From IMG/VR virus record IMGVR_UViG_3300015179_000040: 8,405 bases of DNA, one strand, 5' to 3'. The translations under genes and the position numbers were made by a program. The DNA is from a virus (lineage: Duplodnaviria; Heunggongvirae; Uroviricota; Caudoviricetes). The notes under the pieces were generated by a model that worked only from the letters and a program-made list of their open reading frames with translations, was not told the DNA's origin and searched no databases. This document shows positions 1-8,405 of the stretch, in pieces (the stretch's first letter is position 1; each line of letters opens with the position of its first letter).

Positions 1-1131
1 TCAAATGACCAGTTTTTTCCACTCCTTACCGCGTACATCGTTGTAAATATCGGTCATTTTTTGATTCGAATGACCTAGCAAAATTTTGGTATCAACCCCC
101 TGCTCTCTGAACAATCGCTCTGATAAAGATCTCTGCTCATGGAAAGAGGGTGGGGTGCCATTAGCACGCCAGTTGTAATCCACAGAATCCCGGGCTTTTT
201 TAAATGCAACTGTTAATGTTGCTGGCTTAGCCATCCCGCCGCGCTTAGCTGTCCCTTTCGCGTGATGGTGGTGCAATAGCCACGGACTAAGAACACAATC
301 GCGGCAGGATGACACTACATCATCCAGGGTGAGATTTAATTTATCGCAACGCAGAGCCAGAGGGATGGCAATCCGGGTTCCTGTTTTTTGCTGTTCGACA
401 TGAAGATAACCATCCCGGATATCCGAAAATTGCATTTTGCAAATATCTGAAAGGCGCTGGCCTGTCATCAGTGCCAGCAGCATACCGCGCTGTAAAAAGT
501 AACCATCCTTTTCCGCTGCGTTATAAATCATCATCCACTCATCAAAAGTCAGTCGCTGTCTTGATATCCGCACCTGCGGTTTTTTTTCCTATTTTGCAGG
601 GTTAAAGCCTGGCGGGACATCGCCCGTTTGCTGAGCTTCCCGGAAAACATCGATCAGTACCTTCCTGAAAATTTGTCCCATTCTGTTATGTCCTCTGGCC
701 TTGTACTCTTCCAGTACTGATACCACATCTTTTACGGTTATGGCATCTAACGGTCTGGTGCCAAAACGTTCATCAAATACCCTGAGAGGGGCCGCTTTCT
801 GTTTCAGCGTGTTGAGTTTGATCTCGCCGTTTTCATATCTTTCCTGTTGAATTTTTCTGTAATTATTCAGAAAAATGGTAACGGTTGATGAACCGCCGGT
901 ATCACTAATAATTTTCTCCTGCAGACTGAGCATTTGTTCCATTTGCTGCCGGGCAAGACGGCTGTTCGCTTCTGCTGCAATAGTTTCTGCCAGTTTCTGG
1001 TCAATACTGCCGAGACCGTGATTTTTGCCTGTTATGGGATGCCTGTAACGCCAGTAAACTTTGTTATTTCTTTTGTCAAAATACGGAGATAATCCCGGAA
1101 CATTGGTTTTATATTTTCGCGGGCGCGCCAT
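1..1131 (-). pseudogene. int: Lambda-family tyrosine integrase, full-length reading frame (376 codons) interrupted by a single in-frame TAG at 589-591
   Basis: ORFs 589..1131 and 1..573 are in the same frame, separated only by TAG plus five sense codons (GAA AAA AAA CCG CAG) before a GTG. The N-terminal part resembles the lambda Int arm-binding/core-binding region (RNNKVYWRYRHPITGKNHGLG vs lambda RNNGYYCYRDPRTGKEFGLG). The C-terminal part carries the catalytic residues in lambda-like context (TGQRLSDI, VEQQKTG, FHEQRSL, LLGHSN, TDIYNDVRG, with Tyr nucleophile). Reading-frame stop TGA at 3..1. Identity from motif memory, no search run. Confidence 0.8.
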
Positions 1132-1357
1132 CTTCCAGTATCCTCTTCAAAGCAGGGTGATCTGTGGCGATCACCTCCGGCTTGTTTACCATTCCGACAA
1201 AGCGAGCTTGCGGATCCACTCGCCAGCGTCTTCCAACTTTTTTGGGGAGAGGAAATATCATTCCGGCTTTAGCGTATTTACTTAACGTACTCGGAGTTGG
1301 GACCGGTTCACTGAATTCCTCTTTTGCCCACTCAGTGAGCAGAATAAGTCTTGCCAT
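1109..1357 (-). CDS. xis: Excisionase (Xis-like DNA-binding protein)
   Basis: 82-aa ORF immediately upstream of int, overlapping the int start by 23 nt as in lambda xis-int. Sequence LTEWAKEEF...MIFPLPKKVGRRWRV resembles lambda Xis LTLQEWNA...RIFPPPVKDGREYLF. Weak Shine-Dalgarno. Confidence 0.7.
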   Translation of the reverse strand: MARLILLTEWAKEEFSEPVPTPSTLSKYAKAGMIFPLPKKVGRRWRVDPQARFVGMVNKPEVIATDHPALKRILEDGAPAKI

Positions 1358-1421: not shown

Positions 1422-3896
1422 TTAAAAATCAGCCTGATTCGGGATCAGTTTTTGCCAGATAACTGAAACGTATTTTGCCTGGTAACGGGCGTCATCAAGT
1501 GCATTATGGCGCTCACCTTCGAATGGAATAGCCGTTCTGGCATCGAAGTCTATGGCTTTCCCCAGCTCAACGATTGTGCGTACATCGCGATCGTTGTAGT
1601 AACGCCACGGGCAGGGGATCCCCTGCCGTTCGTATGAACGGCGCAAAATCGTGTTGTCGAAGTTGGCTCCATTTCCCCAGACCTGAACAAAAAATTCACC
1701 GGAGTTTTCGTCGATAAATTCCCGCAATTGTAACAGTGCATCATCTAACGGGATTTCATCGGTCATAATGGCAGACTGCGCTTCACGTGATTGCTTCAGC
1801 CACCTTTTAATGACGTCACGATCAATGACTCCGCCAGCAGTTTCCAGATCGATAGTCTTACTAAATTCCGGTCCCATATCTCCGGTTTGCGGATCGAAAA
1901 ATATTGCACCTATTGAGATGATCGGGGCATCAGGATTTTTTCCCATGGTTTCAAGGTCGATCATTAGATGGTCACACGTCCTGCTGGTGGATGTGATTTC
2001 TTGATGACCGTTCACCTTAATTGAGTGATCTGCCGTCTCGCCAGTTTCATTATCGCTATCGTGATGCTGATTGCCGTCAGTGTTCTCCTTGTGTGGATGT
2101 TCAGCGCCTTCCATTTCCTCCGGATCATCTTCCTGAACTTCAACCTGATACTCTTCATCGAATGTTTCCTGGTATGTTGCGTCGCCCATCACCGCGCCAC
2201 AATCAGGGCAGTTGCCGCCGCCGGTCTGACCGCAGGCGGTGCAGACTTTTTCCACTTCCTGTTGCGCCACTGGTTCAGGCTGTTTCGTTTCTGGCTCGTT
2301 TTGTAACGCATTTGGGCTGTTTTGTTCCGCTTTCTGGCCGTTCTGTTCCGTTTCTTGCTGGTTCTGATTCACTGAATCGCGGGTTTCAATCCCCTTCACC
2401 CATTTCGGATCATTCGGGTCGCTAATCCCTGCAACAAATTCACCACGTGATACAGCAAGCAACTTATTGGCGTCAGGCTGGCTGATATTGGCTGCCTGCA
2501 TAATTTTGTTTACTTCGTCAGCGGTAACTTTTACCGGCTCTGGTTGTGCGATCGTGTCAGATGCACCAGTATTTTGTTGTGAACCTGAGTACGTGCCGTT
2601 TTTACGTGCGAAGTATTCCTCTTTTGTGATTTCCGTAGCTCCCAGGGCCAGTGCTTTTTCCAGACCAGAAAGTTTGTTTGCGCGACCGTATTTTTCGCCG
2701 TCCTTATCGGTGAAAAGGAAGTAGAACGGTCCCTCACGCTCTACAGATGGTTCGTCTTCCACTTCGCATTCGGTTTTTTCGTTGTCCGGCATTGCCGTTT
2801 CCACTGCATCAGTTTCTGGTACTGGTGACGGGAGAGTACCAGCTGTGCCCTGATTTGTTCCTTCGTCATCTTCAAACACGCCCTTGGTAGTCAGGTATTC
2901 AGTGATGTATTTGTTCAGTGCTACGGGATCTTTGTGAATGTCGATCGGACGCTCACGGACAAGGCCAAAAATAGTCTGACGGTCGTAGCGAACGGCATCG
3001 GGTTGTTTGCGCATTGATGCGGAAATGCGCTTCCAGTCTTCGCGATCTTTGTCGATAACTTCATTTTTTGCCCAGCGATGGATGCTGCCGTCAATGTTTC
3101 CGGTATCAATATCGCCAGGCCAGAGAGCGTAGGCCAGTTCTTCATCCAGCGTTTTCCATGTCTGCTTGTATTCGCGACAAATGGCGGCAGTGACTGGGTT
3201 GATTTTTCCTGCTGAGTTTTCAGTGTTCTGTTGATTGACTCTGGCGCTGGCGAGATCAACAACAGACGTGTATTTTCCAGTCTCTTTGCGCTCTGCGTCC
3301 TGCCGTTTTTTCCAGTTACGTAATTCAGCCTGAATTTCGGGCCATTTGGCACCCGGATTACATTTGTGTTTAACCCATCCGATAGCGAACAGTTTGCGTT
3401 CCGGATACATAGCGTTAATTTCAGGCGTTTTCATCAGTGCTTCAACGATATGCCCGTCAAAGGTAGCAACGTCTTCCTGCAGTAATTCCTGCGCGTCAAT
3501 CGCCATATCAACGGTGATGTTTTCACATGTACCGAACTTAACCAGGACCGCGTTCTGTACTTCAAGGGACAGCTTGTCAAAATTGACGTTCATCGGATCG
3601 GATTCTGGTTCGACCGGAATAAAGGAAGCGGATTCCTCATCCCAGCGGTTTTCCTGCATATATTCAGCATCCCAGGAATCGAGGGCAGGGCGGGGTATAC
3701 CGGGTTTATCCTCGCAGACAAGAAATTTATAAGCGCAGTCCTGAGCAGCCGGATAATGTTCCAGGAATTGCCAGTGAAATTTTGCGCGGGCGCGACGTTC
3801 ATCACCGGCTTCAATGGCAGTGGCTACAGCGACGGCACCTTCTTCCTTTATTGCCTGTTCGTCCGGAATGGCGGCGCAAATAAAGACTTTACTCAT
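1422..3896 (-). CDS. Large prophage exonuclease (824 aa): RecE-like N-terminal region, acidic linker with CxxC-x7-CxxC knuckle, C-terminal DnaQ-like DEDDh 3'-5' exonuclease domain
   Basis: Long uninterrupted ORF with SD (GAGGT) 9 nt upstream of the ATG. The C-terminus has the three DEDDh motifs (MIDLETMG; WGNGANFDN; HNALDDARYQAKY). The central motif LLAVSRGEFVAGISDPNDPKWVKGIETRD matches what I remember of the RecE (exonuclease VIII) N-terminal region. Position between ydfD-like and xis matches the ydfE slot of K-12 Qin. No search run. Confidence 0.8.
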   Translation of the reverse strand: MSKVFICAAIPDEQAIKEEGAVAVATAIEAGDERRARAKFHWQFLEHYPAAQDCAYKFLVCEDKPGIPRPALDSWDAEYMQENRWDEESASFIPVEPESDPMNVNFDKLSLEVQNAVLVKFGTCENITVDMAIDAQELLQEDVATFDGHIVEALMKTPEINAMYPERKLFAIGWVKHKCNPGAKWPEIQAELRNWKKRQDAERKETGKYTSVVDLASARVNQQNTENSAGKINPVTAAICREYKQTWKTLDEELAYALWPGDIDTGNIDGSIHRWAKNEVIDKDREDWKRISASMRKQPDAVRYDRQTIFGLVRERPIDIHKDPVALNKYITEYLTTKGVFEDDEGTNQGTAGTLPSPVPETDAVETAMPDNEKTECEVEDEPSVEREGPFYFLFTDKDGEKYGRANKLSGLEKALALGATEITKEEYFARKNGTYSGSQQNTGASDTIAQPEPVKVTADEVNKIMQAANISQPDANKLLAVSRGEFVAGISDPNDPKWVKGIETRDSVNQNQQETEQNGQKAEQNSPNALQNEPETKQPEPVAQQEVEKVCTACGQTGGGNCPDCGAVMGDATYQETFDEEYQVEVQEDDPEEMEGAEHPHKENTDGNQHHDSDNETGETADHSIKVNGHQEITSTSRTCDHLMIDLETMGKNPDAPIISIGAIFFDPQTGDMGPEFSKTIDLETAGGVIDRDVIKRWLKQSREAQSAIMTDEIPLDDALLQLREFIDENSGEFFVQVWGNGANFDNTILRRSYERQGIPCPWRYYNDRDVRTIVELGKAIDFDARTAIPFEGERHNALDDARYQAKYVSVIWQKLIPNQADF
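2277..2381 (-). repeat. Degenerate 21-bp (heptad) tandem repeats inside the exonuclease gene
   Basis: About 4-5 imperfect copies of a GTTYTGTTCCGYTTCTKGCYG-like unit. They encode Q/N/E-rich heptads NQQETEQ / NGQKAEQ / NSPNALQ / NEPETKQ / PEPVAQQ in the linker preceding the zinc knuckle. Confidence 0.45.
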
Positions 3897-3975: not shown

Positions 3976-4179
3976 TTACGGCGCTGTTTTTAATCCTGCC
4001 GGGATTTCGTTATTGTCCATGTGAATAACTTTATCGACCGGATAACAGTTGCCGGGAATTTTCTGTTCCGCTGCGGCAGCCATGCATTCTTTCATTGAGT
4101 TGTACATGCCGGTGATTGCATCAAGCGACTCACCAGTATTGAGATGTACAGTCAGAATGAGTACGAATAATGTGTTCAT
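3976..4179 (-). CDS. ydfD: YdfD-like small membrane protein (DUF1482-type; reported lysis protein in Qin)
   Basis: 67 aa from the ATG at 4179..4177 (MNTLFVLILTVHLNTGESLDAITGMYNSMKECMAAAAEQKIPGNCYPVDKV...). Hydrophobic N-terminus. Its ATG overlaps the dicB TGA stop (ATGA), indicating translational coupling. Sits in the same position relative to dicB as K-12 ydfD. The ORF track starts it at an upstream GTG (4185). Confidence 0.7.
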   Translation of the reverse strand: MNTLFVLILTVHLNTGESLDAITGMYNSMKECMAAAAEQKIPGNCYPVDKVIHMDNNEIPAGLKTAP

Positions 4180-4364
4180 CGCCACTCTCCGAAAATACCG
4201 AGTTTAAGAAGGGCAATTCTGGAGAGTATGGAATTGTCATTCAGCAGGTAGGGTTCATATTTTCTCATATTGATTGCATCCTCGGTGAAATCCCTGTTAC
4301 TGAGCAGAACACCAATATTAAAGCACCCGTCAGACGTATTAACGTTTGGTAGTGACGTTTCCAT
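4176..4364 (-). CDS. dicB: DicB-family cell division inhibitor (MinC-activating, FtsZ-ring inhibitor)
   Basis: 62-aa ORF METSLPNVNTSDGCFNIGVLLSNRDFTEDAINMRKYE... matches my memory of the E. coli DicB N-terminal signature (LPNVNTSEGCFEIGV...FTEDAIN.RK). SD GAGGA 8 nt upstream, overlapping the rha stop codon. Confidence 0.85.
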   Translation of the reverse strand: METSLPNVNTSDGCFNIGVLLSNRDFTEDAINMRKYEPYLLNDNSILSRIALLKLGIFGEWR

Positions 4365-4374
4365 TATCGCGTCC

Positions 4375-4932
4375 TCAACAATGAATTTTTAGCAATTGCT
4401 CCACAGTCATATTTTTAATTGCGCTCCGGTTTACAAGAGTCCATCCTTGTTTCTCCAGATAAAACCGGAAGGTATCCAGGGTGCAGACCATTGCGCCGTC
4501 AGGAACGGTTTCAGTGAATTTGATATTGCCGTGTTCGTCGAGACGGATAACCAGGGTGCGTCCGTCCCCGTGAATCATTTTGTCGGGAGACGGGGCGTTA
4601 TTCTGGCGCAGTTCTGCTTCCATGCGGTCGAACTCAGCAATGTATGCCTCTTTAAATGCAGCGGCTTTTTTGCCAGTGAAGCCCATCACCAGGAAAACGA
4701 AGCCGTTTTTGGTGATTTGGTACATTGGGAGTTTGCGCCCGGTTGAGTCGGTGTATTCGCTCGACACAAAATTGTGCTCAGTGAATTTTGCTGAACAGTC
4801 CAGATTGCGAATTTTATCCAACACTCGTTCGTGGCGTTTGCCAAAGAACTCGGCGATCGCAACAGACGTAGTGACAGCGCGACCATTTTCGATGGTTACG
4901 TCAGGGTGAGAAAGGGTAAGGATAGTAGCCAT
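4375..4932 (-). CDS. rha: Rha-family phage regulatory protein (Phage_pRha domain; antirepressor-like)
   Basis: Start chosen at the ATG 4932..4930 (MATILTLSHPDVTIENGRAVTTSVAIAEFFGKRHERVLDKIRNL...YQITKNGFVFLVMGFTGKKAAAFKEAYIAEFDRME), preceded by GGAGG at 8-nt spacing. These motifs are typical of the Rha family. The in-frame upstream extension to 5229 in the ORF track was rejected (see noticed_but_rejected). Confidence 0.75.
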   Translation of the reverse strand: MATILTLSHPDVTIENGRAVTTSVAIAEFFGKRHERVLDKIRNLDCSAKFTEHNFVSSEYTDSTGRKLPMYQITKNGFVFLVMGFTGKKAAAFKEAYIAEFDRMEAELRQNNAPSPDKMIHGDGRTLVIRLDEHGNIKFTETVPDGAMVCTLDTFRFYLEKQGWTLVNRSAIKNMTVEQLLKIHC

Positions 4933-5097
4933 GATGGCAGCCTCCGCGATGAATTTGATTAACTCACCACCGAGGTTTTCCACGACCATAAGGGTGGTGA
5001 GACGTACAGGGGTGGAAATACCGGTCATCACGGAACCCGGCCAGCCTTGCGGCTGCCCTGCACGCCCCACCATAATGCGAATGTGGCTGTGCTTAAC

Positions 5098-5128
5098 GCA
5101 TAAAAAAACCGCCTGAGCGCGGTTATGC
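5098..5128 (-). terminator. Rho-independent terminator upstream of rha, within the operon
   Basis: On the minus strand: GCAUAACCGC-GCUCAG-GCGGUUUUUUUAUGC. A short GC stem with 6-nt loop followed directly by a 7-U tract. The plus strand has no U tract after the stem. Confidence 0.5.
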
Positions 5129-5410
5129 GCCGTGAATGATTTCGGGTTTCCACGCCCGGCACCCGTTTTATGAGGTGCAGGTGCACTATAATTCCACCCG
5201 TTCTGGTTTTCAATAGCTACATTCAACATTTTCTCTACCTTTCATCACCGAAGTGAACTTTGTTGATGCGGTGCCTGGTGCCTCCAGGTGACGTTAACCA
5301 GTTAACAATTAACGTCGGATACAGAGCATTCCCGTTACGCCCGTAAAAGACCGCTTGTTTTAACTGTTCCGCGTGCGCTGAGCCGCATTCACCGCATCAC
5401 AAAATTCACT

Positions 5411-5472
5411 TTAAAAGGGGCGGGTATCATGGGAAAAACAAAACGGATACCCGCCAAAAGGTAATCAACATG
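5411..5472 (-). ncRNA. dicF: DicF-like small RNA (divergent homolog) ending in an intrinsic terminator
   Basis: Minus-strand sequence UGUUGAUUACCUUUUGGCGGGUAUCCGUUUUGUUUUUCCCAUGAUACCCGCCCCUUUUAA has a 10-bp stem GGCGGGUAUC/GAUACCCGCC followed by CCUUUU. It resembles, from memory, E. coli DicF (…UUUGGCGGUAUCAGUUUUACUCC…GCCGCCCUUUUU). Synteny fits: downstream of ydfC-like, upstream of dicB. Ends are approximate; not confirmed by a covariance model. Confidence 0.45.
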
Positions 5473-5795
5473 GGTTGTTGCAGCGGGGTTGTCACTCAGG
5501 CGTATGGTCAACCTGACAACCCGGTGGACATTTGCGAGGAACGGAGAACCCCCGCCATACTTACCGCCGCGCCATTTCGCGGAGTGCCACAACCGGAAGC
5601 GCACGGTCGACGAAAATTTAACGACAGGCTATCTATGAACCAGCAACCTCGCCGTGCGCTTTCGCGTTATGCTCTGACTTTTCAGAGAAATATCCTTTCA
5701 GTAAACTGTCAGTGCCGGATGCTCACCCGTGTCCGGCGCACACACTCCACCTCACCCGTGGAGAACTCCTTAATTACCAACCCTCAGGAGGGTGA

Positions 5796-6029
5796 ATGTT
5801 AAAATCAACGCTTATTGCTAAATGCCTTTATCAAAATCGCATGGTAAGCAGCATTTCAATAGGCGAGTCTGCAGTTAAAAGTATTTTCGAAGAGTACTTT
5901 CCCGGGCATGATTTTAATAAATGGAATACCAAATTACCGCCAGCAGTTTCAACGCGTATTCTGAAAGCAACTGAAAGAGCAAGTACAATTCGCGTTAACT
6001 ATTTCATTAAAGATTTGTGGGATCTTTGA
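5796..6029 (+). CDS. Hypothetical 77-aa protein, opposite strand to the operon, convergent with and overlapping the 3' end of the 135-aa ORF
   Basis: ORF with AGGAGG-type SD 4-5 nt before the ATG at 5796. Protein-like composition (MLKSTLIAKCLYQNRMVSSISIGESAVKSIFEEYFPGHDFNKWNTKLPP...). No homolog recognised. Could be a chance ORF in an AT-rich stretch. Confidence 0.3.
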   Translation: MLKSTLIAKCLYQNRMVSSISIGESAVKSIFEEYFPGHDFNKWNTKLPPAVSTRILKATERASTIRVNYFIKDLWDL

Positions 6030-6414
6030 TATCCACAGAGCCTAAAGTATGTGCATATGGATGTGCTGTTGTGCGCCCTCGCAGATTTGCATCATTTTCT
6101 AAATTCACTGAACGAAACAGGGCATCAACAAGGCTCTGTACAATGCAAAGGCAATCGAAGACTGTCGCCGTTTCTGTTTTGATTGATGAAAGAACATGGC
6201 CATTCACGCAAACAGAAATTACCCGTTTATTAACATCGCTTTCCTGCTTTTGATTATCAGAACCATATAGCCCTGAAAAAGCATTGCGCACATTACGAAC
6301 CATATTATCGATGGTTTCTTTTTTGGTGTATGCCGGGTCAATTTTCACCAGACTATCACCGAGTGTCGTTGCAGCAATTATCTGGATTTCTTTTGGTAAA
6401 TCTTTAAATTCCAT
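6007..6414 (-). CDS. Hypothetical 135-aa protein of unknown function, in operon orientation between ydfC-like and the dicF-like RNA
   Basis: ORF with SD GAGG 6 nt upstream of the ATG at 6414, starting 22 nt after the ydfC-like stop. AT-rich codon usage distinct from the neighbouring GC-rich stretch. No family recognised from memory. Confidence 0.65.
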   Translation of the reverse strand: MEFKDLPKEIQIIAATTLGDSLVKIDPAYTKKETIDNMVRNVRNAFSGLYGSDNQKQESDVNKRVISVCVNGHVLSSIKTETATVFDCLCIVQSLVDALFRSVNLENDANLRGRTTAHPYAHTLGSVDIKDPTNL

Positions 6415-7223: not shown

Positions 7224-7685
7224 CTACTGGTTACGTTTCTTTAGTGCCAGCATGTTCTCGAAGGCTTCCTCGTAGAGCTTGTTTAGTCCACGTAGCTGGT
7301 TAAGGAGTTTGGCTTTTTCTGACGCAGGTAGAATCTCGAAGAGGTTAAGTAACTCTGCCTGTTCTTCATTGACCAGCCTCCATCCTTTGCCTGAAAAGTT
7401 ATCATCATAAGTATCTGATGATCTTACATAATTCATTAAGTCTTTAAGGTCTTCTCGAATGTCCTCTGGTTTTACCTTTAACAGAGCCGCAAATTTTAGC
7501 GCAGCGTCGGTATTTACCGGTATCTTGCCGTTCAGATACTGGCTAACGGTGCCTTGAGATTCGAATCCCAACAACTCAGCCGCCAGCTCTTGAGTCAGCT
7601 TCAGCTCTTTTTTTCTTGCATTCCATGCGGCTTTTAAATTCTTGCTCGCTTCTGGAGTTGCAATCACTTCGCGTGTTTTTTTCAT
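7224..7685 (-). CDS. DicA-like HTH (XRE-family) prophage repressor, no LexA/S24 autocleavage domain
   Basis: 153-aa ORF with HTH LTQELAAELLGFESQGTVSQYLNG and C-terminal LNLFEILPASEKAKLLNQLRGLNKLYEEAFENMLALKK, resembling the DicA C-terminus (LELFNALPESEQ...FNKLFEELLKARQ) from memory. Divergent from the Cro-like gene. No recognisable SD before the ATG. Confidence 0.75.
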   Translation of the reverse strand: MKKTREVIATPEASKNLKAAWNARKKELKLTQELAAELLGFESQGTVSQYLNGKIPVNTDAALKFAALLKVKPEDIREDLKDLMNYVRSSDTYDDNFSGKGWRLVNEEQAELLNLFEILPASEKAKLLNQLRGLNKLYEEAFENMLALKKRNQ

Positions 7686-8068: not shown

Positions 8069-8405
8069 GCACATCCGCATGGCGATGAATGCCTGGGCGC
8101 ATCCGGACGGTGAAAAAGTTCCGGCAGCTGAAATAACCCGGGCTTATTTTGAGCTTGGTATGACGTTCCCGGAATTATATGACGACAGCCATCCGGAAGC
8201 CCTGGCTCGCAATACCCAGAAAATTTTCCGCTGGGTGGAGAAAGACACTCCTGATGCGGTTAAAAAAATTCAGGCGTTGTTACCAGCGATCGAAAAAGCA
8301 ATGCCGCCTCTGCTGGTGGCCCGAATGCGCAGCCACAGTTCAGCTTATTTTCGGGAGCTGGTGGAGACGCGGGAACGACTGGTGAGAGACGCTGATGATT
8401 TTGTC
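8052..8405 (+). CDS. YdaT-like protein, 5' partial (runs off the window end)
   Basis: Open frame from the ATG at 8052 with no stop to 8405 (MKIRHEHIRMAMNAWAHPDGEKVPAAEITRAYFELGMTFPELYDD...KIQALLPAIEKAMPP...). The start overlaps the end of the YdaS-like gene by 17 nt. MKI(K/R)HEHI is the N-terminus I recall for Rac YdaT. Missing from the ORF track because no stop is in the window. Confidence 0.6.
   Translation, partial: MKIRHEHIRMAMNAWAHPDGEKVPAAEITRAYFELGMTFPELYDDSHPEALARNTQKIFRWVEKDTPDAVKKIQALLPAIEKAMPPLLVARMRSHSSAYFRELVETRERLVRDADDFV

What the first reader, a model, noticed from the sequence alone, without database searches (positions are those of the whole stretch)
1422..3896. Large exonuclease pairs a RecE-like N-region with a DEDDh 3'-5' exonuclease domain and a zinc knuckle, with no recombinase partner
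The C-terminal roughly 190 aa carry clear DnaQ-like DEDDh motifs, whereas classical RecE ends in a PD-(D/E)XK 5'-3' exonuclease and is followed by recT. Here the nuclease domain is of a different fold class and no recT/bet/erf-like gene is adjacent (ydfD/dicB upstream, xis downstream). The acidic linker contains CTACGQTGGGNCPDCG (CxxC-x7-CxxC) and heptad Q/N repeats. The function may be in nucleic-acid degradation, defence or counter-defence rather than recombination.
Basis: partly seen in the sequence, partly recalled or inferred. Interest (0 to 1): 0.6.

Follow-up and report, generated by a model that had tools for sequence, protein, structure and literature searches.

The report
RecE-like prophage protein with swapped exonuclease
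This is an intact copy of a very common E. coli prophage gene (the full-length form of the K-12 pseudogene ydfE) that keeps RecE's large, unexplained N-terminal part but carries a T4 DexA-like 3'-5' exonuclease instead of RecE's own nuclease, and has no RecT partner; it is already catalogued but nobody has studied what it does.

Summary
Window 1422-3896 (-) is one 824-aa ORF. Its C-terminus is a Pfam Rv2179c-like DEDDh exonuclease domain (E 3e-63; catalytic residues D647, E649, D747, H797, D802). A CxxC-x7-CxxC knuckle lies at aa 552-566 and a 21-bp (heptad) repeat linker at 2280-2355. No recT/bet/erf gene is present here or in six related prophages.

The whole N-region is homologous to RecE residues 1-591. 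aa 262-626 match by BLASTP. aa 1-205 match only by profile comparison (Pfam YdfE_N type). Homology stops where RecE's PD-(D/E)XK domain begins.

The zinc knuckle and the linker also occur in authentic RecE, so they are not special to this protein.

The family is modular:
- PD-(D/E)XK forms are followed by recT.
- A third C-terminal type is followed by a Sipho_Gp157 gene.
- DEDDh forms have no partner.
- Some forms have no recognisable nuclease.

The DEDDh cassette occurs in 75% of complete E. coli genomes, against 32% for RecE's nuclease domain. Folded domains are under purifying selection.

The nearest studied relatives are T4 DexA and the E. coli protein "EcD", reported as anti-T4. Function is untested; I think a DNA 3'-5' exonuclease of the DicA-repressed dicB operon most likely. 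The family is catalogued (PHROG, Pfam, PGAP) but uncharacterised, so interest is moderate.

The parts
1422..3896 (-). Complete CDS, 824 aa: YdfE/RecE-family scaffold with a C-terminal DEDDh exonuclease. It is the last long gene of the dicB-type left operon.
   Evidence: (PHROG 2082 'exonuclease', full length 1-824)
3252..3896 (-). N1 domain, aa 1-215 (Pfam YdfE_N type). Predicted to be folded. A remote homologue of RecE's N-terminal Exonuc_VIII domain.
   Evidence: AF2 pLDDT about 90. 88% identical to K-12 ydfE. hhalign against RecE-type N1: probability 95.9%. dN/dS 0.12. No structural match in PDB or BFVD.
2868..3179 (-). N2 helical domain, aa 240-343. Shared at 33-56% identity with both YdfE-type and RecE-type proteins; likely the Pfam YdfE_C region.
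   Evidence: AF2 pLDDT about 89, module table, BLASTP to RecE 278-340, dN/dS 0.11, Pfam family names
2583..2738 (-). Small beta-hairpin/helix domain, aa 387-438 (GPFYFLF...). Conserved in YdfE-type relatives.
   Evidence: AF2 pLDDT about 88, module table
2367..2486 (-). Conserved short motif, aa 471-510 (SRGEFVxGISDPNDPKWVKG). Shared with authentic RecE.
   Evidence: AF2 confidence only low to moderate.
2280..2355 (-). 21-bp tandem repeat, 3.7 copies, encoding the Q/N/E-rich heptad linker. Predicted to be disordered.
   Evidence: K-12 RecE is 14 aa shorter here.
2199..2243 (-). CxxC-x7-CxxC putative zinc knuckle, aa 552-566.
   Evidence: dN 0-0.016 across alleles. AF2 pLDDT only about 55.
1977..2192 (-). 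Acidic, predicted-disordered linker, aa 569-640. Homology to RecE ends at about aa 626, at the boundary of RecE's nuclease domain.
   Evidence: dN/dS about 1.
1455..1970 (-). DEDDh (DnaQ-like) 3'-5' exonuclease domain of the Pfam Rv2179c-like / T4 DexA family, aa 643-814.
   Evidence: DexA 8kel, E 1.8e-18. AF2 pLDDT up to 91. dN/dS 0.21-0.27.
3976..4364 (-). Upstream operon partners: ydfD-like DUF1482 gene (3976-4185) and dicB-like gene (4176-4364).
   Evidence: Same order in all related loci.
1..1357 (-). Downstream excisionase (1109-1357) and lambda-type integrase (1-1131, with an in-frame stop at 589-591). No recT lies between them and the exonuclease.

Best explanation
The gene is an intact member of the YdfE/RecE family of lambdoid-prophage left-operon proteins.

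It keeps the family's N-terminal scaffold. That scaffold consists of two folded domains, a small beta/alpha domain, and a roughly 200-aa flexible linker carrying a conserved peptide motif and a Cys4 knuckle.

RecE's 'PD-(D/E)XK 5'-3' exonuclease plus recT' unit has been replaced by a single T4 DexA-like DEDDh cassette.

I infer the following. When the DicA-like repressor is lifted, the gene is transcribed as the distal gene of the ydfABC-dicB-ydfD operon. The product is a metal-dependent 3'-5' exonuclease. The scaffold places it on the same, still unknown, target as RecE, most likely DNA ends. There it removes 3' strands.

With no annealing protein, it is not a RecET/Red-type recombinase. Its likely role is end degradation or processing of linear DNA (host, its own replication intermediates, or incoming DNA).

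Shown: domain identities, catalytic residues, homology boundaries, gene order, prevalence, and selection.
Inferred: DNA as the substrate, the polarity in this protein, the timing of expression, and the biological role.
For: Domain and catalytic residues:
- Pfam PF16473, E 2.9e-63, with an intact D-E-D-D-h set.
- The best solved relative by profile search is T4 DexA, a 3'-5' DNA exonuclease (E 1.8e-18; PMC12153337).
- No entry named Rv2179c appeared in a profile search of the PDB at E up to 10 (I did not check that such an entry exists).

Homology to RecE:
- aa 262-626 match RecE 278-591 and the match stops at the nuclease boundary.
- N1 is a remote homologue of RecE's N1.
- The CFT073 allele is Exonuc_VIII + DEDDh and is 59% identical to RecE 50-591.

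Cassette behaviour:
- aa 549-824 are almost identical between alleles whose N-parts are saturated with differences.
- A YdfE_N/C + PDDEXK protein is followed by an overlapping recT.
- A YdfE_N/C protein with a third C-terminal type is followed by a Sipho_Gp157 gene.
- DEDDh forms are followed directly by xis-int in 7 of 7 loci (window).

Selection and prevalence:
- dN/dS is 0.11-0.27 in folded domains and about 1 in linkers.
- The cassette is present in 4093 of 5426 complete E. coli genomes.

Operon membership:
- The gene order matches the K-12 dicBF operon, which includes ydfE and is repressed by DicA (PMC10448788).
- No sigma-70-like promoter was found on the gene's strand between 1000 and 4500.

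Wider context:
- The window has four co-oriented Chi sites and no Rec module. This fits the Rec-less, Chi-rich lambdoid class. That paper also reports DnaQ-type nuclease genes near int, outside Rec modules (PMC12315714).
Against: - No biochemical or genetic data exist for this protein or for ydfE.
- Identity to DexA is only 23% and to the EcD-like protein 38%. The Pfam family is named after an exoribonuclease, so RNA cannot be excluded as substrate.
- The N-terminal scaffold has no informative structural match. The idea that it delivers the nuclease to DNA ends rests only on analogy with RecE.
- In K-12, a transcript extending into ydfE was not detected (PMC10448788).
- The promoter scan is a crude consensus search.
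- Two of the seven loci carry frameshifted copies, so the gene is dispensable in some prophages.
Confidence: 0.55

Rival explanations
1. Superinfection-exclusion or defence nuclease. The prophage-encoded DEDDh domain destroys incoming phage nucleic acid. The substrate could be modified DNA, as claimed for EcD/HREX, or phage RNA 3' ends, as for the TONDO exonucleases. The N-terminal region would act as the auxiliary or targeting domain.
For: - E. coli EcD, a DexA homologue, is reported to digest 5hmC DNA and to protect against T4 (PMC12153337).
- A 189-aa protein matching EcD's primers and its A78 is 38% identical to this domain.
- DEDDh exonucleases on mobile elements, carrying unrelated auxiliary domains, defend against MS2 and Qbeta (bioRxiv PMC13344964).
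- A paper title (PMC6832061; not read) reports that DicB protects against phage infection.
- The cassette is very common, with several copies per genome.
Against: - The residues that paper ties to the mechanism differ here. DexA W152 aligns with Y767 and varies among homologues (Y, C, W, R). DexA D90, which is A in EcD, is D719 here.
- There is no PADLOC hit.
- The gene is distal in a repressor-controlled lytic-type operon, with no promoter-like site of its own on its strand. Expression in a quiet lysogen is therefore doubtful.
- The EcD-like gene itself lies in an early operon of a P2-like prophage, downstream of cox. This looks like a phage function rather than a lysogen-expressed moron.
Confidence: 0.2
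2. A recombination or replication-restart function that needs no phage annealing protein. 3'-5' resection of double-strand ends would leave 5' overhangs that anneal spontaneously. Alternatively, the enzyme trims ends to cooperate with host RecBCD/Chi and RecA during recombination-dependent late replication.
For: - The gene sits in the left operon next to xis/int, as recE does in Rac.
- It keeps the complete RecE scaffold.
- The prophage has no Rec module but has four co-oriented Chi sites in 8.4 kb, like the RecBCD-dependent lambdoids of PMC12315714.
- From my own knowledge, not checked here: host ExoIII, a 3'-5' exonuclease, drives RecA-independent in vivo cloning in E. coli.
Against: - 3'-5' exonucleases usually remove the recombinogenic 3' tail and inhibit homologous recombination, as noted in PMC12315714.
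- That paper places such DnaQ-type genes near int outside recognisable Rec modules.
- Partner loss is complete in all seven DEDDh loci, whereas the PD-(D/E)XK form keeps recT.
Confidence: 0.15
3. An exoribonuclease, as the Pfam name suggests. It would trim or degrade RNA, such as host or phage transcripts, small RNAs of the same operon, or RNA primers.
For: - The Pfam family is PF16473 '3'-5' exoribonuclease Rv2179c-like'.
- PGAP names some copies '3'-5' exoribonuclease domain-containing protein'.
- DEDDh enzymes often accept both RNA and DNA. The TONDO enzymes act on RNA.
Against: - By profile search, the closest solved relative is the DNA exonuclease DexA (E 1.8e-18).
- No entry named Rv2179c appeared at E up to 10.
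- The scaffold is shared with a DNA exonuclease, RecE.
Confidence: 0.15
4. A decaying prophage remnant with no current function.
For: - K-12 carries only an IS2-truncated fragment, ydfE.
- Frameshifted copies exist.
- The integrase next to it in this window has an in-frame stop.
Against: - The ORF is intact.
- dN/dS is 0.11-0.27 in folded domains and about 1 in linkers.
- The catalytic residues are invariant down to 37-53% identity.
- 3511 genomes hold a place covering at least 80% of the gene.
Confidence: 0.03

Closest known systems
RecE (exonuclease VIII) of the Rac prophage, E. coli K-12
   Same: - Same operon position, upstream of xis-int.
- The homologous N-region runs from residue 1 to about 591. 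It includes the SRGEFVxGISDPNDPKWVKG motif, the CxxC-x7-CxxC knuckle and the acidic linker.
- The CFT073 allele of this gene is 59% identical to RecE 50-591.
   Different: - RecE's C-terminal PD-(D/E)XK 5'-3' nuclease domain is absent and replaced by a DEDDh domain.
- The downstream recT is absent.
- The NCBIfam RecE equivalog scores 277 bits against a cut-off of 1269.
- N1 in this allele is the diverged YdfE_N type, about 12% identical to RecE's N1.
YdfE (b1577), pseudogene of the Qin prophage, E. coli K-12
   Same: - 88% identical over aa 1-256.
- Same neighbours: dicB and ydfD upstream, int downstream.
- Pfam's YdfE_N and YdfE_C families are named after it.
   Different: K-12 ydfE is cut by IS2 after about 256 residues. 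It lacks the linker, the knuckle and the nuclease. The window holds the full-length form.
T4 DexA (PDB 8kel/8ken), 3'-5' exodeoxyribonuclease
   Same: - Same DEDDh subfamily.
- It is the best solved relative by profile search (E 1.8e-18).
- All five catalytic residues align.
   Different: - 23% identity.
- DexA is a stand-alone 227-aa protein with extra loops.
- DexA W152, implicated in 5hmC reading, is Y767 here.
EcD / 'HREX' (E. coli DexA homologue, GenBank HAK9828821.1; PMC12153337)
   Same: Same Pfam family. The domains are 38% identical. Both are encoded in E. coli prophages.
   Different: - The EcD-like protein is a stand-alone 189-aa protein in a P2-like early operon, next to a Dam-type methylase.
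- It has A78 where this protein has D719, and W where this protein has Y767.
DnaQ-type nucleases and 'RecE-2' proteins of lambdoid phages (Genome Res 2025, PMC12315714)
   Same: That survey reports DnaQ-like 3'-5' nuclease genes close to int, outside canonical Rec modules. It also reports RecE-related proteins without a nuclease domain. This matches this gene and relatives such as P0125.
   Different: In the passages I read, the paper does not describe the fusion of the RecE/YdfE scaffold to the DnaQ-type domain, nor the link between cassette and partner. It leaves the roles open.

Membership tests
RecE / exodeoxyribonuclease VIII | C-terminal PD-(D/E)XK (RecB-like) 5'-3' nuclease domain (Pfam PF12684/DUF3799 region; RecE residues about 592-866) | tested here: not met
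   No PF12684 hit. No BLAST match to RecE 592-866. Relatives with that domain do hit it.
RecE / exodeoxyribonuclease VIII | Reaches the NCBIfam equivalog cut-off (NF007259, 1269 bits) | tested here: not met
   277 bits; only aa 448-626 are aligned.
RecE / exodeoxyribonuclease VIII | Adjacent, co-transcribed recT (annealing partner) | tested here: not met
   64-bp spacer, then xis. The same holds in six related loci.
RecE / exodeoxyribonuclease VIII | Homologous N-terminal region (about 590 residues) | tested here: met
   BLASTP: aa 262-626 match RecE 278-591, E 7e-61. hhalign: N1 against RecE N1, probability 95.9%.
DEDDh (DnaQ-like) exonucleases, Pfam PF16473 Rv2179c-like / DexA subfamily | Domain model match above the curated threshold | tested here: met
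   213 bits against a cut-off of 27, full model 2-177 of 177. PF00929 RNase_T scores 23.1 bits, just under its cut-off of 24.
DEDDh (DnaQ-like) exonucleases, Pfam PF16473 Rv2179c-like / DexA subfamily | Catalytic D, E, D, D and H residues in the three Exo motifs | tested here: met
   D647, E649, D747, H797 and D802 align with the catalytic columns of DexA and the EcD-like protein, and are invariant in homologues.
DEDDh (DnaQ-like) exonucleases, Pfam PF16473 Rv2179c-like / DexA subfamily | RNase H-like alpha/beta fold | tested here: inconclusive
   The AF2 model of aa 639-824 is alpha/beta with pLDDT 57-91. A sequence profile hits DexA at E 1.8e-18.
DEDDh (DnaQ-like) exonucleases, Pfam PF16473 Rv2179c-like / DexA subfamily | 3'-5' exonuclease activity; DNA or RNA as substrate | not testable with these tools
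   Needs enzyme assays.
HREX / EcD-type defence exonuclease (PMC12153337) | Loss of the DexA D90 tetramer contact (Ala in EcD), with Trp (W152) and an acidic residue (D169) kept for 5hmC reading | tested here: not met
   D719 aligns with D90 and Y767 with W152. The D169 region aligns ambiguously. The alignment is at 23-38% identity, so this is only indicative.
HREX / EcD-type defence exonuclease (PMC12153337) | Protection against T4; selective digestion of 5hmC DNA | not testable with these tools
   Phenotypic and biochemical.
Two-component phage recombinase (Red Exo/Beta, RecET) | A 5'-3' exonuclease plus a single-strand annealing protein in one module | tested here: not met
   The nuclease is of a 3'-5' type. 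No RecT, Erf or Bet family hit on any ORF of the left operon.
TONDO (ISG20-like DEDDh defence exonucleases, bioRxiv PMC13344964) | ISG20-clade DEDDh domain plus an auxiliary domain; defence against RNA phages | not tested
   No TONDO sequences were available to compare. That study considered only proteins under 500 aa.

The most novel reading that the evidence does not exclude
The enigmatic N-terminal part of RecE/YdfE (about 600 residues) is an autonomous targeting platform, and lambdoid prophages equip it with interchangeable effector cassettes. The cassettes seen are PD-(D/E)XK + RecT, DEDDh alone, a third nuclease-like domain + Gp157, or none. The DEDDh version, which is the commonest in E. 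coli, would then be a scaffold-guided 3'-5' nuclease. It would either exclude competing phages and foreign DNA, or give annealing-protein-independent end joining. In that case, what RecE's N-terminus recognises would define a new class of prophage nuclease systems.
Probability: 0.2. Interest if true: 0.7.

Novelty: new variant of a known kind. Interest (0 to 1): 0.4.

Why it matters
Only RecE's C-terminal third has an assigned role; from my own knowledge, the function of its roughly 590-residue N-region is an old open question.

This gene shows that the region is a conserved, selected unit that exists independently of RecE's nuclease and of RecT. In E. coli it is most often joined to a DexA-like 3'-5' exonuclease: 75% of complete genomes carry that cassette, against 32% for RecE's own nuclease domain.

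This offers natural domain-swap variants for asking what the scaffold recognises. It also flags a very abundant, uncharacterised prophage nuclease in pathogenic E. coli, including Stx-phage lineages. That nuclease could affect recombination, prophage induction or resistance to other phages.

The sequence family is already in PHROGs, Pfam and PGAP, and no unusual mechanism has been demonstrated, so the find is moderate rather than striking.

Tried and rejected
- PADLOC: no hit for this protein or its neighbours.
- First homologue search with aa 1-344: only near-identical E. coli partial proteins were listed. Its one useful result was to reveal the newer Pfam families PF27430 and PF27432.
- My recollection that K-12 exoD (DLP12) is a fragment of this family was wrong. 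There is no similarity.
- Whether EcD is this protein: no. EcD's primers give MIDTET... at the start and a different end.
- Internal start at M645, which would yield a stand-alone DEDDh protein like EcD: the nearest AGGA is 14 nt upstream, so there is no convincing ribosome-binding site. Dropped.
- Own promoter or terminator around the gene: nothing on the minus strand beyond chance.
- Literature. Searches for 'PF16473' and 'Rv2179c' gave nothing on phages. 'ydfE' gave no functional study. One search was wasted because 'full-length RecE' matched 'receptor'.
- PDB sequence search with a relative carrying the third C-terminal type (P0132): no hit.
Full report
**What is at the coordinates**

Window 1422-3896 (minus strand) is a single 824-aa ORF with a GAGG ribosome-binding site 9 nt before the ATG. 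It lies in a lambdoid prophage left operon. Read in the direction of transcription, the order is:
- a DicA-like repressor (7224-7685);
- ydfA, ydfB and ydfC homologues;
- an unknown 135-aa gene;
- an Ash/Rha ORF;
- dicB (4176-4364) and a ydfD-like DUF1482 gene (3976-4185);
- this gene;
- excisionase (1109-1357) and integrase (1-1131).

This is the layout of the K-12 Qin dicBF operon. That operon is reported to run from ydfA to ydfE and to be repressed by DicA (PMC10448788). The K-12 pseudogene ydfE, cut by IS2, is 88% identical to aa 1-256 of this protein. The window therefore holds the full-length form of ydfE.

**Checking the observation**

- Pfam PF16473 (Rv2179c-like 3'-5' exonuclease) matches aa 643-814 at E 2.9e-63.
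- The DEDDh residues are D647, E649, D747, H797 and D802. They align with the catalytic residues of T4 DexA and stay invariant in homologues down to 37% identity.
- The knuckle CTACGQTGGGNCPDC is at aa 552-566.
- The heptad linker is a 21-bp tandem repeat of 3.7 copies at 2280-2355.
- No ORF of the operon belongs to a RecT, Erf or Bet family.

**Relation to RecE**

BLASTP against K-12 RecE aligns aa 262-626 with RecE 278-591 (E 7e-61). The segment from about aa 480 is far more similar than the 38% average. It includes the motif SRGEFVxGISDPNDPKWVKG, the zinc knuckle (RecE: CNACGQTGGDNCPDC) and the acidic tail.

The match ends at ...ETGE(T/V)AD, where RecE's nuclease domain begins. Nothing matches RecE 592-866. 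The NCBIfam RecE equivalog scores 277 bits against a cut-off of 1269.

The first 260 residues do not hit Pfam Exonuc_VIII. Precomputed Pfam hits on close homologues and relatives place the newer families YdfE_N and YdfE_C on this N-region. A profile-profile comparison of 13 YdfE-type and 12 RecE-type N-termini gives 95.9% probability (E 5.8e-9) over 191 columns. The whole N-region is therefore homologous to RecE's, with N1 highly diverged.

The knuckle and the linker are inherited family features. They are not peculiarities of this protein.

**Anatomy from structure prediction**

AlphaFold2 on aa 1-470 (40-sequence alignment) gives three confident units: aa 1-215, aa 240-343, and a small beta-hairpin/helix domain at aa 387-438. 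These have pLDDT of about 88-90 and are separated by disordered stretches.

AlphaFold2 on aa 441-824 shows a long, mostly disordered tether. Residues 501-549 and 571-638 have pLDDT below 50, and the knuckle is only weakly confident at about 55. The tether leads to a confident alpha/beta DEDDh domain.

**A modular family**

A search of 1.84 billion representative proteins with aa 1-640 found 254 relatives. Mapping modules onto them, together with Pfam and PHROG scans, shows free combination:
- RecE-type N-region + DEDDh. P0129 is 100% identical to K-12 RecE over residues 1-277. The CFT073 allele is 59% identical to RecE 50-591.
- YdfE-type N-region + PD-(D/E)XK (P0130, P0192, P0228).
- YdfE-type N-region + a third 'exonuclease' module known only as PHROG 7838 (P0128, P0132, P0133, P0184).
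- YdfE-type N-region + a C-terminus with no recognisable nuclease (P0125).

The partner gene follows the cassette:
- P0130 is followed by an overlapping recT.
- P0132 is followed by an overlapping Sipho_Gp157 gene.
- P0125 and all DEDDh forms are followed directly by xis-int.

Codon analysis shows the joint lies in the linker. Against the CFT073 allele the N-part is saturated with differences, whereas aa 549-824 are nearly identical (dS 0-0.03).

**Is it functional, and how common is it**

Against a 90-95% identical allele, dN/dS is 0.12 (N1), 0.11 (N2) and 0.21 (DEDDh), and about 1 in the two disordered linkers.

The gene matches 4800 of 5426 complete E. coli genomes, and 3511 of them hold a place covering at least 80% of it. 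The DEDDh cassette alone is in 4093 genomes at 8163 places, mostly 95-99% identical. RecE's PD-(D/E)XK domain is in 1736 genomes at 1827 places.

PGAP calls the gene 'exonuclease' or '3'-5' exonuclease'. PHROG 2082 covers it end to end. Some copies are frameshifted.

**What the nuclease resembles**

A profile of the C-domain hits T4 DexA (PDB 8kel) at E 1.8e-18. The next best hit reaches only 6e-4, and no entry named Rv2179c appears at E up to 10.

[quoted passage not shown] A 2025 paper reports that an E. coli homologue, EcD, digests only 5hmC DNA and protects against T4 (PMC12153337).

From that paper's primers I recovered an EcD-like 189-aa protein from viral contigs. It is 38% identical to this domain. 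It sits in a P2-like prophage early operon, downstream of cox and next to a Dam-type methylase.

The residues that paper links to its mechanism differ here. DexA W152 aligns with Y767, which varies among homologues. DexA D90 aligns with D719, where EcD has Ala.

A 2026 preprint shows that other DEDDh exonucleases on mobile elements, carrying auxiliary domains, defend against RNA phages (PMC13344964). I could not test whether they are related to this protein.

A 2025 survey of lambdoid phages notes DnaQ-type nuclease genes near int, outside Rec modules, and 'RecE-2' proteins without a nuclease. It leaves their roles open (PMC12315714). The window's four co-oriented Chi sites and its lack of a Rec module fit that paper's Rec-less, Chi-rich class.

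**Most likely mechanism**

I commit to the following. On derepression of the DicA-type repressor, the gene is expressed as the distal member of the dicB operon. Its product is a metal-dependent 3'-5' exonuclease, most probably acting on DNA. It is held on a flexible tether of roughly 200 residues by the RecE-family scaffold, which brings it to the same unknown target as RecE, plausibly DNA ends.

Without an annealing protein it is not a RecET/Red-type recombinase. Degradation or processing of ends is the likely outcome.

The domain identities, boundaries, gene order, selection and prevalence are shown. The substrate, the expression timing and the biological role are inferred (confidence about 0.55).

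The rivals are a defence or exclusion nuclease (0.2), partner-independent recombination or cooperation with RecBCD/Chi (0.15), an RNase (0.15, not exclusive of the others) and a dead remnant (0.03).

**Novelty and verdict**

The family and its domain architecture are already catalogued, and a recent survey mentions such nucleases in passing. I found no functional study of this protein or of ydfE.

I did not find the following explicit picture in the papers I searched and read. This protein is a RecE paralogue in which the nuclease and its partner were swapped as a unit. The N-region persists with four different C-terminal ends. The DEDDh form outnumbers canonical RecE in E. coli.

I rate it a new variant of a known kind, of moderate interest (0.4). 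Its interpretation is partly supported: 'not a RecET-type recombinase' holds, 'defence or counter-defence' is untested, and the knuckle and linker are not distinguishing features.

Noticed in passing
window 1-1131 (-), stop at 589-591: The lambda-type integrase has an in-frame stop at codon 181 ('PAK*EKK'; an intact close homologue reads 'PAESAKK'). The prophage may be unable to excise, or this is a sequencing error.
   Followed up: partly
window 4990-5077 (-) and 5102-5178 (-), inside ORF 4375-5229: Rfam finds a C4 antisense RNA (81.9 bits) and an isrK Hfq-binding RNA (67.7 bits). Both lie within the N-terminal 'Ash' part of a 284-aa Ash/Rha ORF. It looks like a P1/P7- or Gifsy-type c4/isrK-antirepressor module, placed roughly where Qin carries dicF. 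No DicF match was found in the window.
   Followed up: no
window 1394, 1983, 8312, 8357 (+ strand): There are four Chi sites (GCTGGTGG), all in one orientation, and none on the other strand, in 8.4 kb. This is about twice the E. coli average as I recall it. It fits the 'no Rec module, Chi-rich' lambdoid class described in PMC12315714.
   Followed up: partly
window 5229-6007: About 780 bp without any ORF of 40 aa or more on the operon strand and without an Rfam hit. It spans a G+C drop from about 0.52 to 0.40, between the Ash/Rha ORF and an unknown 135-aa gene (6007-6414, PHROG 1363). Content unexplained.
   Followed up: no
P0204 (protein library; 703 aa): A protein with the K-12 RecE N-region (100% over residues 1-277, 99% over 278-460) is fused directly to a RecT domain (Pfam RecT, E 1e-42). 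It lacks the RecE nuclease domain. It may be a deletion fusion.
   Followed up: no
L038/L039/L040 (gene 5001-7109 in L038); L041 4001-6717: Some relatives of the scaffold have no recognisable nuclease (P0125: KilR, then the gene, then xis-int). Others have a third C-terminal module (PHROG 7838, no Pfam or PDB match), followed by an overlapping Sipho_Gp157 gene (P0132).
   Followed up: partly
L030 6401-6991 (-) and neighbours; also L009, L014, L024, L025, L027: The protein matching the published anti-T4 'EcD' (189 aa, A78) is found on viral contigs. In L030 it lies in a P2-like prophage early operon: integrase, repressor, a weak Cox-like hit (below the Pfam cut-off), DUF4761, the EcD-like gene, then a Dam-type methyltransferase. 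The reported 'bacterial' defence gene therefore looks like a prophage early gene.
   Followed up: partly
NZ_CP031350.1 (L035), a 187-kb record labelled as a plasmid: A copy of the whole prophage left arm, with a frameshifted exonuclease, lies next to ompW, yciC, tonB and kch, which are chromosomal genes. The record is labelled a plasmid. This may be a misassembly or a large chromosomal segment carried on a plasmid.
   Followed up: no
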